A stretch of 20,695 bases of DNA from Promethearchaeota archaeon. GTDB lineage: Archaea > Asgardarchaeota > Lokiarchaeia > Sigyniarchaeales > SOKP01. Below the pieces are notes generated by a model. That model saw nothing but the letters and a program-made list of their open reading frames with translations, was not told where the DNA came from and ran no database searches. Where the stretch lies: positions 1 to 20,695 of the forward strand of contig JBHLNS010000051.1 in the NCBI GenBank assembly GCA_048941285.1, written 5' to 3'. Numbering within the stretch: the stretch's first letter is position 1; the number at the start of each line of letters is the position of its first letter. This document shows, one piece after another, positions 2,556-3,533 of this stretch. Position numbers and translations under genes: made by a program.

Positions 2556-2730
2556 AAAAACATATATCCTACTTGATTAAACCTTTTAAATTTAATGTTC
2601 TTTATGGAAAAGTTTAATTATTAGCTTTAATTTTTCCTATTTACTTGTAACCATATATAAGTAAGTATTTTCTTATAAAATAACTGGCCTTATAAAATGG
2701 TTCAAAATATAGCTTATAACCACATAAATT

Positions 2731-2747
2731 AGTAGCGACTCGCTACT
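2731..2747 (+). other. Hairpin in the 5' leader of the pre-5S transcript
   Basis: AGTAGCG-ACT-CGCTACT forms a 7-bp perfect stem between the outer stem and the splice-like motif. Confidence 0.7.
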
Positions 2748-2881
2748 GCGCTGGAACCATCCGAACCCGGAAGTTAAACTTGTTTCGCGTTGTAGATAGT
2801 ACTTTAGTTGCGATCTATGGGAAACTACAAACTGTAAGTTTGCTTACGGTCATGGCATACAAGGATAATACCCGGACACGC
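2748..2881 (+). other. Bulge-helix-bulge/loop (BHB/BHL) splicing-endonuclease-type motif formed by the two ends of the permuted 5S gene
   Basis: GCG(2748-50) pairs with CGC(2879-81). The central 4-bp helix is CUGG(2751-54)/CCGG(2872-75). The 3-nt bulge ACA(2876-78) and the opposite AAC(2755-57) both lie 3' of the central helix, as in a canonical BHB. The inner side is an internal loop, so the motif is relaxed. Confidence 0.75.
2757..2877 (+). rRNA. rrf: 5S rRNA gene, circularly permuted (canonical 3' part 2757-2841, then canonical 5' part 2842-2877)
   Basis: Signature CCATCCGAACCCGGAAGTTAA, with loop E AGTAC/GGGAA. All helices pair once reordered. Helix I: CTTACGGT(2843-50)/ACTGTAAG(2831-38). 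Helix II: GC..ACAAG(2855-63)/CTTGT..GC(2779-88). Helix III: CCGG(2872-75)/CCGG(2767-70). Helix V: TTGTAG(2790-95)/CTACAA(2825-30). Helix IV is capped by GCGA. Total length 121 nt. Confidence 0.9.
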
Positions 2882-2990
2882 TTTTTTATGTGGTTATACT
2901 CGATCTACCTTTTTGGAATTATCTAAAATTAAGTTTTTAAGCAATAAATTATATTTTTAATTAATACGGAATAAATCTAACTCTGAAATC

Positions 2991-3533
2991 TTGCCAAAAA
3001 AGTATATTGTTATAATAAAAACAATTGGAAGAAAATGGTTTCTTTTTCTTGTGGCGATTATCTTAATTGTGGCGATTTATAATACAATAGCCGCTATTTG
3101 GATGTCCGGTATAACATTAGTACTATTTCTATTATCCTATATTCCAAGATTATTGTTTAAAAGAAAACTTAATAGATTTTTGAGAAAATACTATAAAATT
3201 GAAGACGAGTTAATTGCAAGAAAATTTAAGAAGCCTTTACAAAAAATACAGGATGACATGTTTGAAGTTTCACAAAAACAAGAAAAAAAAGAATCATTAA
3301 TTGTGTTTTTAAATAAGCAATATATTTTTTATCATGAAAAAACGATCGCGAAATTCAAGGAAGTCTATAACAAAGGGTTTAGTGAAAAAGAAATTCTTGA
3401 TAATTTAAAAGATTTTAAGGTTACAACAAGAGCAGAAATTAAGGCAATTAAAGACACATTGGTAAAGCTTAATCGACTTAGTGAAAGAGAAATTTCCGTA
3501 AAAGAACATAAAGACAAACAGAGATTTTTATAA
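2991..3533 (+). CDS. Hypothetical protein, two N-terminal TM helices plus a basic helical domain
   Basis: 180-aa ORF with a TTG start. Hydrophobic hairpin at about residues 16-55 and a Lys/Glu-rich remainder; no recognised motif. Confidence 0.75.
   Translation: MPKKYIVIIKTIGRKWFLFLVAIILIVAIYNTIAAIWMSGITLVLFLLSYIPRLLFKRKLNRFLRKYYKIEDELIARKFKKPLQKIQDDMFEVSQKQEKKESLIVFLNKQYIFYHEKTIAKFKEVYNKGFSEKEILDNLKDFKVTTRAEIKAIKDTLVKLNRLSEREISVKEHKDKQRFL

What the first reader, a model, noticed from the sequence alone, without database searches (positions are those of the whole stretch)
2831..2850. Canonical 5S ends are fused with no spacer: the mature 5S may remain a covalently closed circle
Seen: ACTGTAAG-TTTG-CTTACGGT, in which helix I is an 8-bp hairpin closed by a 4-nt UUUG loop. 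The canonical 3' end (...AAGUUU) abuts the canonical 5' end (GCUUAC...) with no removable linker. Established: permuted tRNAs are re-opened at an intervening spacer, whereas the Thermoproteus SRP RNA remains circular. Inference: the ribosome may carry a circular 121-nt 5S, or a single cut at about 2841/2842 may relinearise it. The seamless joint also hints at an origin from a circular RNA copy or an exact tandem duplication.
Basis: inference. Interest (0 to 1): 0.78.

Follow-up and report, generated by a model that had tools for sequence, protein, structure and literature searches.

The report
Circular 5S rRNA from permuted gene
This archaeon's only 5S ribosomal RNA gene is written back to front, so the transcript must be cut and re-joined into a 121-base ring whose usual ends are sealed by a four-base loop, and environmental RNA shows that this ring exists.

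Summary
Window 2831-2850 is an 8-bp hairpin (ACTGTAAG/CTTACGGT) with a TTTG loop. It is helix I of a circularly permuted 5S rRNA gene, and at most 1 nt (T2841) lies between the canonical 3' end (2840) and 5' end (2842).

A bulge-helix-bulge (BHB) motif formed by leader and trailer predicts cuts at 2756|2757 and 2877|2878. Ligation then gives a 121-nt ring with a canonical loop C.

RNA contigs from 4 of 4 metatranscriptome runs cover only 2757-2877 and carry exactly that back-joint. In two runs one 151-nt contig (121 + 30) closes the ring and crosses both the joint and the helix I loop. Leader and trailer are never covered.

The permuted gene is found in 119 of 135 genomes of the family, one or two matches per genome, and in scattered other lineages of the phylum. 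The sister family, which holds complete one-contig genomes, has canonical linear 5S genes. The cap is 4 nt in 118 of 123 loci, mostly UUCG or UACG, and helix I covaries.

Contigs cannot show RNA ends or abundance. It therefore remains unproven, though likely (about 0.6), that the ring rather than a re-opened form sits in the ribosome. My literature searches found no report of a permuted archaeal 5S gene.

The parts
2690..2697 (+). TTATAAAA, likely archaeal TATA box of the 5S precursor (inferred)
   Evidence: The same box at the same distance is seen in related loci. The start site was not mapped.
2715..2728 (+). 5' arm of the outer processing stem (leader)
   Evidence: 14 nt, 100% complementary to 2885-2898. 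It forms in the MFE fold. Leader/trailer complementary runs of 8-20 nt occur in all 119 loci examined, with 88 distinct arm pairs.
2731..2747 (+). Conserved leader hairpin of unknown role (discarded with the leader)
   Evidence: 8-nt arms, 100% complementary; arm variants that keep pairing in relatives.
2748..2750 (+). BHB outer helix, leader strand (GCG), pairs with 2879-2881
   Evidence: This 4-nt helix has at least 3 of 4 pairs in 113 of 119 loci, with many covarying variants.
2751..2754 (+). BHB central 4-bp helix, leader strand (CTGG), pairs with 2872-2875
   Evidence: CCGG/CCGG, CTGG/CCAG and CTGG/TCAG variants.
2755..2757 (+). BHB bulge A (AAC); cut 2756|2757; C2757 is the first base kept
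   Evidence: RNA cover starts at 2757 in all 4 runs and the back-joint lands on 2757.
2757..2877 (+). The 121 nt that are excised and ligated into the 5S ring
   Evidence: cover, back-joint, 151-nt self-closing contigs; the circular fold gives the 5S three-helix junction.
2757..2778 (+). Loop C, 3' strand of helix III (CCGG 2766-2769) and GTTAAAC
   Evidence: alignment to RF00001 positions about 34-58.
2779..2788 (+). Helix II, 3' strand
   Evidence: helix 1: 86.8% paired, 6 of 8 pairs with changes on both sides.
2790..2830 (+). Helix V, loop E, helix IV, loop D
   Evidence: helices 2 and 3: 96.7% and 95.2% paired.
2831..2838 (+). Helix I, 3' strand (ACTGTAAG)
2839..2842 (+). TTTG cap that joins the canonical 3' end (2840) to the canonical 5' end (2842)
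   Evidence: RNA contigs run through it.
2843..2850 (+). Helix I, 5' strand (CTTACGGT)
2855..2863 (+). Helix II, 5' strand
2872..2875 (+). CCGG: 5' strand of mature helix III, and in the precursor the trailer strand of the BHB central helix
2876..2878 (+). BHB bulge B (ACA); cut 2877|2878
   Evidence: the joint runs from 2875 plus two letters (TC in the sampled strain, AC here) back to 2757.
2879..2881 (+). BHB outer helix, trailer strand (CGC)
2885..2898 (+). 3' arm of the outer processing stem (trailer); T-run 2882-2887 overlaps it

Best explanation
The locus is the genome's only 5S rRNA gene, and it is circularly permuted. The order is promoter, leader, then loop C to the 3' strand of helix I, a 4-nt cap, then the 5' strand of helix I to the 5' strand of helix III, and trailer.

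Leader and trailer pair in a 14-bp outer stem and present a relaxed bulge-helix-bulge motif: GCG/CGC, CTGG/CCGG, and the bulges AAC and ACA. The tRNA-splicing endonuclease (two paralogues encoded) cuts after the second base of each bulge, at 2756|2757 and 2877|2878. RtcB then ligates the ends.

The product is a 121-nt covalent ring. Loop C is restored to the canonical ...CCGG(A/U)C|CCAUCCGAACCCGG..., and helix I is an 8-bp hairpin capped by UUUG where other organisms have the free 5S ends.

Inferred: which enzymes act, and that the ring is not re-opened and is the form built into the large subunit.
For: 1. Gene order. Rfam's 5S model reaches only 30.3 bits (cut-off 38) on 2722-2840, with mispaired helices I and II. 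That is the only 5S hit in a 94% complete genome. The downstream 5' half pairs and covaries with the upstream 3' half.

2. RNA (4 of 4 runs). Cover is confined to 2757-2877, with a 'goes back 119' joint from 2875(+TC) to 2757. The joint has at least 31 letters on both sides in X2 and X4, and 19-26 on the shorter side in X1 and X8. The 151-nt contigs in X2 and X4 equal 121 + 30. The cap is bridged by at least 31 letters on each side in X2, X4 and X8, and in X8 a TTAG variant of the cap is also present in RNA.

3. BHB motif. It is found in 119 of 122 loci, at two different breakpoints (87 after helix III, 32 before loop C), with covarying helices.

4. Enzymes. Two endonuclease paralogues and RtcB are encoded.

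5. Distribution. Full-length matches to a model of the permuted order occur in 119 of 135 genomes and 12 of 13 genera of the family. Canonical 5S above cut-off occurs in 12 of 14 genomes of the sister family but in only 2 of 61 of this family, and both of those lie beside bacterial 23S.

6. The cap. It is 4 nt in 118 of 123 loci, has G at position 4 in 116 of 118, and is UUCG/UACG/UCCG in 76 of 118; C(UUCG)G or C(UACG)G occurs in 29. UACG, UUCG, CUCG and UUCG caps are seen in 4 distant GC-rich lineages.

7. Precedents. A 4-nt connector joining the native 5S ends works in E. coli ribosomes (PMC7283268, passages). Circular 23S in mature archaeal ribosomes and the circular Thermoproteus SRP RNA are further precedents (PMC12918454; PMC4731332).
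Against: - All RNA evidence comes from assembled contigs. They show no ends, no strand and no local depth, so a re-opened majority with a circular minority would give the same graph.
- The RNA comes from a near-identical strain (T instead of A at 2876), and all four runs are wetland samples of one year, possibly one campaign.
- Association with ribosomes is not shown.
- The MFE fold of the precursor forms mature helix III, not the BHB central helix. The inner BHB helix is missing, so the motif is only the relaxed form.
- The window's own cap, UUUG, is not of the UNCG type.
- Four genomes of one genus carry 34-35 nt exactly in this loop. That could be a removable spacer, as in permuted tRNA genes.
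- Published circular 16S intermediates of archaea are re-opened (stated in PMC12918454).
- Conservation of U1 and G4 of the cap would also fit a terminal G.U pair of a linear molecule.
Confidence: 0.62

Rival explanations
1. The ring is only a processing intermediate. One endonucleolytic cut in or beside the cap (about 2841|2842) gives a linear 5S with near-canonical ends, and that form enters the ribosome.
For: Circular 16S pre-rRNAs of archaea, and by the older view 23S too, are re-opened (PMC12918454 background). Four genomes have a 34-35-nt insert in this loop that could serve as a spacer. Contigs cannot exclude this reading. U...G of the cap could be the old terminal pair.
Against: At most 1 nt lies between the canonical ends, so there is nothing to trim. 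The cap has a fixed length of 4 nt and is mostly a UNCG-type loop even in distant GC-rich lineages. Loop-spanning RNA is assembled even at a mean depth of 7.2, while flanks are absent at depths of 85-124. The sister family's 5S genes are stand-alone genes of 116-120 nt; those printed show no leader/trailer stem, and I know of no dedicated 5S-end endonuclease (inference).
Confidence: 0.25
2. Both forms coexist at comparable levels, or the ring is opened at another site such as loop D.
For: Nothing direct. Contig data allow it. About 30-nt inserts at loop D and loop C in relatives show these tips are tolerant.
Against: Contigs are continuous around the whole ring in X2 and X4, with no missing segment.
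Confidence: 0.08
3. The two BHB cuts are made but the ends stay unligated, giving a linear permuted 5S with a nick in loop C. This would resemble the brown-algal mitochondrial 5S, which is permuted in the final RNA.
For: All nucleotides of a 5S are present either way. PMC4267664 shows that a permuted linear 5S can function.
Against: RNA contigs read straight across the joint in 4 of 4 runs. Two different breakpoints in the family give the same joined loop C.
Confidence: 0.03
4. It is an ordinary linear 5S gene at 2722-2840, as Rfam aligns it, followed by a relic 5' half; or the permuted order is an assembly artefact of a tandem array.
For: One search gives a full-length (1-120) alignment at 30.3 bits.
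Against: That alignment mispairs helices I and II and is below the cut-off. RNA cover starts at 2757, not 2722, and includes 2842-2877. The 2731-2747 stretch forms its own hairpin. The same order with unique flanks is seen in 119 genomes, including one-contig assemblies G006 and G022.
Confidence: 0.02

Closest known systems
Permuted, circular SRP RNA of Thermoproteus tenax (PMC4731332; abstract and passages read)
   Same: The gene is permuted. [quoted passage not shown]
   Different: A different RNA (5S rRNA, a ribosome component) in a different phylum. Here there are two alternative breakpoints within one family. Circularity of the mature form is shown there by Northern blot, and here only by contigs.
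Circular 23S rRNA in mature archaeal ribosomes (PMC12918454, passages) and the permuted 23S of Pyrococcus and Thermococcus (PMC7758197 and a 2026 bioRxiv preprint; listings and abstracts only)
   Same: BHB cleavage and ligation of an rRNA, with the ring (or a permuted derivative) kept in the ribosome.
   Different: Those genes are colinear and circularisation joins the natural ends. Here the gene itself is permuted, so ligation is needed to build loop C, and the natural ends are fused in the DNA. That paper states that 5S is not processed through circles.
Permuted tRNA genes of Cyanidioschyzon merolae (described in PMC4267664; details recalled)
   Same: The 3' half precedes the 5' half, with a circular RNA intermediate.
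   Different: tRNAs have an intervening spacer between the 3' and 5' ends, and RNase P and tRNase Z re-open the circle. Here 0-1 nt lies between the canonical ends.
Permuted mitochondrial 5S rRNA of brown algae (PMC4267664, passages)
   Same: Helix I is a closed hairpin instead of the paired free ends.
   Different: There the final RNA is linear, with its ends at an open three-way junction and no ligation. Here the junction is intact and the break in loop C is ligated.
Engineered E. coli cp5S (PMC7283268, passages)
   Same: The native 5S ends are joined by a 4-nt connector, the molecule is opened in loop C or D, and the ribosomes are active.
   Different: It is artificial and tethered into 23S rRNA, and it is not a free ring.
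Low-level circular 5S RNA in Sulfolobus and Halobacterium (PMC3326292, passages)
   Same: End-joined 5S circles of about 123 nt are seen in circRNA-seq.
   Different: They arise from canonical genes, are a minor species, were not confirmed by RT-PCR, and may be degradation or side products. Here the ring is obligatory.

Membership tests
5S rRNA (Rfam RF00001) | Score at or above the gathering cut-off (38 bits) on the DNA as written | tested here: not met
   30.3 bits at 2722-2840. This is expected if the halves are swapped. No tool here can score the joined RNA.
5S rRNA (Rfam RF00001) | Helices I, II, IV and V around a three-way junction, supported by covariation | tested here: met
   94.5% and 95.2% of cells paired, 17 and 22 pairs with changes on both sides, 0 of 500 shuffles as high. 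The circular fold gives the junction.
5S rRNA (Rfam RF00001) | Conserved loop C / helix III sequence | tested here: met
   The RNA joint reads ...ACCCGGTC|CCATCCGAAC... (loose ends), matching the model consensus ccGauCCCAUCCCGaAC printed.
Substrates of the archaeal tRNA-splicing endonuclease (BHB) | Two 3-nt bulges on opposite strands, separated by a 4-bp helix | tested here: met
   2755-2757 and 2876-2878 around 2751-2754/2872-2875. Found in 119 of 122 loci.
Substrates of the archaeal tRNA-splicing endonuclease (BHB) | Strict hBHBh' form: helices on both outer sides | tested here: not met
   Only the outer helix (GCG/CGC) is present. No pairing follows bulge A. It fits the relaxed form accepted by heteromeric enzymes (recalled, not tested).
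Substrates of the archaeal tRNA-splicing endonuclease (BHB) | Cleavage after the second bulge base on both strands, followed by ligation | tested here: met
   The joint 2877 to 2757 is seen in RNA of 4 of 4 runs. The position rule itself is recalled.
Substrates of the archaeal tRNA-splicing endonuclease (BHB) | Endonuclease and RtcB ligase encoded | tested here: met
   PF01974 at 104.3 and 69.1 bits; PF01139 at 567.7 bits. That they act on this RNA was not tested.
Permuted RNA genes whose product stays circular (Thermoproteus SRP RNA type) | The circular form is the abundant functional species | tested here: inconclusive
   Self-closing 151-nt contigs and no flank cover, but contigs give no ends or abundance.
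Permuted genes re-opened after circularisation (permuted tRNA type) | A removable spacer between the canonical 3' and 5' ends | tested here: not met
   At most 1 nt here. The cap is 4 nt in 118 of 123 loci. The exception is 4 genomes with 34-35 nt.
Stramenopile mitochondrial permuted 5S | Final RNA is linear with ends at an open junction and no ligation | tested here: not met
   Ligated joint in RNA.

The most novel reading that the evidence does not exclude
Ribosomes of a whole family of Lokiarchaeia-class Asgard archaea, and of scattered other Asgard lineages, carry a covalently circular 5S rRNA. The gene is permuted, so the tRNA-splicing endonuclease and RtcB are obligatory ribosome-biogenesis enzymes. 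The breakpoint has moved within the family, and many members additionally carry about 30-nt BHB-type inserts inside the 5S gene. This would be the first natural circular 5S rRNA and the first permuted 5S gene outside organelles.
Probability: 0.6. Interest if true: 0.92.

Novelty: new variant of a known kind. Interest (0 to 1): 0.86.

Why it matters
5S rRNA is treated as a universal, free, linear RNA whose gene is trivially found. Here a large uncultured branch of the archaea closest to eukaryotes writes it in permuted order. Standard annotation therefore misses it: the Rfam score is below cut-off in 59 of the 61 family genomes sampled, and the 2 above cut-off are contaminants.

It would make tRNA-splicing enzymes essential for ribosome assembly. 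It would add 5S to the short list of RNAs that function as circles (Thermoproteus SRP RNA, some archaeal 23S). It also gives a natural counterpart of the engineered 5S with joined ends.

Three open questions become testable:
- why 5S is kept as an autonomous molecule;
- whether circular rRNAs stabilise ribosomes;
- how permuted RNA genes arise (retro-copy of a ring versus duplication).

Practically, the covariance model built here finds these genes at 78-121 bits.

Tried and rejected
- **Standard scans.** Rfam at gathering threshold and ARAGORN on the whole window found nothing. Rfam on the 5' half alone (2836-2900) found nothing at E up to 10.
- **Failed or mis-set calls.** One literature search timed out. 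One paper reading had a term that was too short and was corrected. My semi-global alignment script was mis-set and its coordinates are meaningless; I used only the printed gene ends and counted from conserved motifs by eye.
- **Repeat finder.** The repeat finder does not list the helix I hairpin, because the G.U pair breaks the seed.
- **Precursor fold.** The MFE fold does not show the BHB central helix. It prefers mature helix III, so the BHB is an alternative conformer supported by covariation and by the RNA joint, not by energy.
- **Contig depths.** I tried to judge ring versus linear from X1 (33.2 across the cap contig against 32.1 + 9.96 across the joint bubble). I rejected this because a contig carries one mean depth.
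- **Insert in the cap.** I looked for a canonical BHB in the 34-35-nt inserts of L141-L143 and found none. L144 fits a relaxed one (and reading).
- **Leader resemblance.** The window's leader (GCTTATAACCACAT) resembles the true 5' end, which I considered as a duplication relic. Relatives do not share it, so I dropped the idea.
- **Canonical 5S in the family.** Canonical 5S genes in G092 and G108 looked like counter-examples, but they lie beside bacterial 23S.
- **Earlier notes of this scan.** None bear on this finding.
- **Literature searches.** 'circular 5S rRNA' returned 0 papers. '5S rRNA' + permuted + Lokiarchaeota returned 1 paper, judged irrelevant from its title and abstract. 'permuted 5S' + archaea returned only the organelle paper. 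'5S rRNA' + bulge-helix-bulge + permuted returned 10 papers, none on 5S permutation by title or abstract. Subscription journals and supplements were not searched.

Full report
**Observation.** Window 2831-2850 reads ACTGTAAG-TTTG-CTTACGGT. That is eight pairs, one of them G.U, and a 4-nt loop. The 20-mer folds as a clean hairpin at -7.2 kcal/mol. The rest of the argument shows that this is helix I of a 5S rRNA whose two halves are swapped in the DNA.

**What the locus is.**
- No Rfam family reaches its cut-off anywhere in the window, and no tRNA is found.
- With relaxed thresholds the 5S model aligns to 2722-2840 at 30.3 bits (cut-off 38). Loop C, helices III-V and the 3' strand of helix I match well, but helices I and II are marked as mispaired.
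- This is the only 5S hit in the 94% complete genome.
- The missing 5' half lies directly downstream, at 2842-2877: helix I 5' strand, loop A, helix II 5' strand, loop B and helix III 5' strand.
- In an alignment of 35 related loci taken in genomic order, a structure with helices II, V, IV and the helix I hairpin is 94.5% paired. Seventeen of 28 pairs change on both sides, 0 of 500 shuffles reach the covariation score, and slid controls fall to 30-45%.
- Helix I is 100% paired there. It is 98.8% paired, with 7 of 8 pairs covarying, in 74 further loci, although that alignment is fitted to the model.
- The gene stands alone between two ORFs (2004-2555 on the minus strand, 2991-3533 on the plus strand).

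**Are the ends really fused?** Rfam places the last model position at 2840. In 10 of 10 canonical 5S genes of the sister family, the first position lies 5 nt before CGGTCAT/CGTTCAT and the last lies 6 nt after CTG/ATG (ends printed; my alignment in that call was mis-set and is not used). Read, this gives 2842 and 2840. One base (T2841) separates the canonical ends, so there is no removable linker.

**How the halves are re-joined.**
- Leader 2715-2728 and trailer 2885-2898 are 14 nt and 100% complementary, and they pair in the MFE fold (z = -3.7).
- Inside that stem, GCG (2748-2750) pairs with CGC (2879-2881), and CTGG (2751-2754) pairs with CCGG (2872-2875). These flank two 3-nt bulges, AAC (2755-2757) and ACA (2876-2878). 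This is a bulge-helix-bulge motif that lacks the inner helix.
- Cutting after the second bulge base (a rule I recall, not tested) predicts a 121-nt product, 2757-2877. Its ligated ends rebuild the conserved loop C.
- The MFE fold prefers mature helix III to the BHB central helix, so energy alone does not support the motif. Covariation and RNA do.
- Across 122 loci the motif is found in 119. The outer helix has at least 3 of 4 pairs in 113 of those 119, with many compensating variants (AGCG/CGCT, AACG/CGTT, CCGC/GCGG, ATCT/AGAT and others). The central helix appears as CCGG/CCGG, CTGG/CCAG or CTGG/TCAG.
- The family uses two breakpoints. In 32 loci, including the window, the break is before loop C. 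In 87 it is after the 3' strand of helix III. Both give the same joined sequence, which only makes sense if the ends are ligated.
- The genome encodes two splicing-endonuclease paralogues and RtcB.

**RNA evidence.**
- Fourteen metatranscriptome runs hold 37-42% of the sampled words of 2690-2900. I laid four of them, and all are held as contigs only.
- In all four, cover is confined to 2757-2877. Leader and trailer have none, even where summed depth is 85-124.
- All four show a joint that 'goes back 119', from 2875 plus TC to 2757. This is the predicted ligation in a strain with T instead of A at 2876. By the tool's own criterion (at least 31 letters on each side) the joint is bridged in X2 (71) and X4 (33). 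In X1 and X8 the shorter side is 19-26.
- The cap (2841|2842) is bridged with at least 31 letters on each side in X2, X4 and X8. In X1 the figures are 85 and 24.
- In X2 and X4 a single contig of 151 nt runs once round and overlaps itself by 30. A 121-nt cycle gives exactly this in a 31-mer graph (my inference about k).
- X8 also carries a TTAG cap variant in RNA.
- So a BHB-processed, ligated, cap-closed 121-nt species exists and far outnumbers the primary transcript.
- Contigs cannot tell how many molecules also carry a nick at the cap. All four runs are wetland samples of one year, possibly one campaign.

**Distribution.**
- A covariance model of the permuted order (R1) gives full-length matches of 78-121 bits in 119 of 135 genomes and 12 of 13 genera of the window's family, one or two matches per genome.
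- With Rfam's model, canonical 5S above cut-off is found in 12 of 14 genomes of the sister family, including complete one-contig genomes. It is found in only 2 of 61 genomes of this family, and both of those lie beside bacterial 23S rRNA and are contaminants.
- Full-length R1 matches also occur in single genomes of two further families of the order (54.2 and 45.7 bits), in another order of the class (43.8 and 31.1 bits), and in 4 of 125 genomes of other families sampled across the phylum (41.7-68.4 bits).

**The cap itself.**
- Among 123 loci the loop is 4 nt in 118. The counts are TTCG 66, TTAG 19, TTTG 15, TACG 7, TCCG 3, CTCG 3 and five singletons.
- G is at position 4 in 116 of 118, and the loop is UNCG-type in 76 of 118. 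The closing pair flips between G-C, C-G and A-U, and 29 loci have C(UUCG)G or C(UACG)G.
- The four distant, GC-rich lineages have UACG, UUCG, CUCG and UUCG.
- That UNCG loops are exceptionally stable caps is recalled knowledge. The loci are related, so the counts are not independent. Still, keeping a 4-nt UNCG-like cap across classes is what a retained structural cap predicts, not a cleavage spacer.
- Against this, four genomes of one genus have 34-35 nt in the loop. One of them fits a relaxed BHB that would restore the window's exact hairpin, and the others are unclear.

**Verdict on mechanism.** Gene permutation, BHB cutting at the stated bonds, ligation and a closed cap are shown or strongly supported. 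That the ring is the mature, ribosome-bound form is inferred, at about 0.6. It rests on the absence of any spacer, the cap conservation, the self-closing contigs and three precedents:
- an engineered E. coli 5S whose native ends are joined by a 4-nt connector is active (PMC7283268);
- the circular SRP RNA of Thermoproteus (PMC4731332);
- circular 23S in mature archaeal ribosomes (PMC12918454).

The main rival (about 0.25) is a single re-opening cut at the cap.

**Novelty.** PMC12918454 (2026) states that 5S, unlike 16S and 23S, is not processed through circles. Danan et al. saw only minor, unvalidated circular 5S from canonical genes (PMC3326292). Permuted 5S is on record only for stramenopile mitochondria, where the final RNA is linear (PMC4267664). 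My searches found no permuted archaeal 5S gene; subscription journals and supplements were not covered. The principle, a permuted gene rescued by BHB circularisation, is known. Its use for 5S rRNA, across a whole Asgard family and with a moving breakpoint, is a new variant.

Noticed in passing
L022-L035 and most loci of other genera (e.g. L023:290-391 with flanks), against window 2748-2757 and 2872-2881: The permutation breakpoint differs within the family. 32 loci break before loop C (window type, bulge AAC). 87 break after the 3' strand of helix III (bulge AAG, cut AA|G before TTAAAC). Both give the same joined RNA. The self-complementary CCGG of helix III may let the BHB slide.
   Followed up: partly
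e.g. L024, L028, L084, L109 trailers (about 30 nt between CCCATCCGAA and CCCGGAA); window has none: Many relatives carry an insert of about 30 nt inside loop C, with its own BHB-like motif whose predicted cuts restore CCCATCCGAA|CCCGGAA. This looks like an intron inside a 5S rRNA gene. Predicted excised lengths are 118-123 nt in 72 of 119 loci, 149-153 in 40, and 172-181 in 5.
   Followed up: partly
L016, L018-L021, L031, L033-L035, L129-L131 (alignment A1 columns 43-72); corresponds to window 2814/2815: An insert of about 30 nt in the loop of helix IV (loop D) in several lineages, with at least three unrelated sequences. It could be an expansion segment or an intron; this is undecided.
   Followed up: no
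L141-L144 (four genomes of one genus), at the position of window 2839-2842: An insert of 34-35 nt sits exactly in the helix I cap. L144 fits a relaxed BHB that would restore the window's 20-nt hairpin. L141-L143 form a GC-rich hairpin without a clear BHB. It could be a helix I extension, an intron or a removable spacer.
   Followed up: partly
L051, L063, L157, L158, L172-L175: Permuted 5S genes (full-length R1 matches, 31-68 bits) occur in other families, another order and other classes of the phylum. Some are in small GC-rich genomes and at least one has a different breakpoint (loop B in L051). Whether this reflects an ancient origin or repeated origins is open.
   Followed up: partly
window 2731-2747: A leader hairpin (AGTAGCGA/TCGCTACT) is conserved with compensating changes in most of the family, just 5' of the BHB. 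Its role is unknown, and it is discarded with the leader.
   Followed up: no
L037 (G092) and L049 (G108): Bacterial 23S-5S contigs are binned into two genomes of the family. The 23S in L037 carries a group I intron.
   Followed up: yes
L041 (three copies, about 375 nt apart), L039: The sister family with canonical 5S keeps it in short tandem arrays, which are possible raw material for a duplication route to permutation.
   Followed up: no
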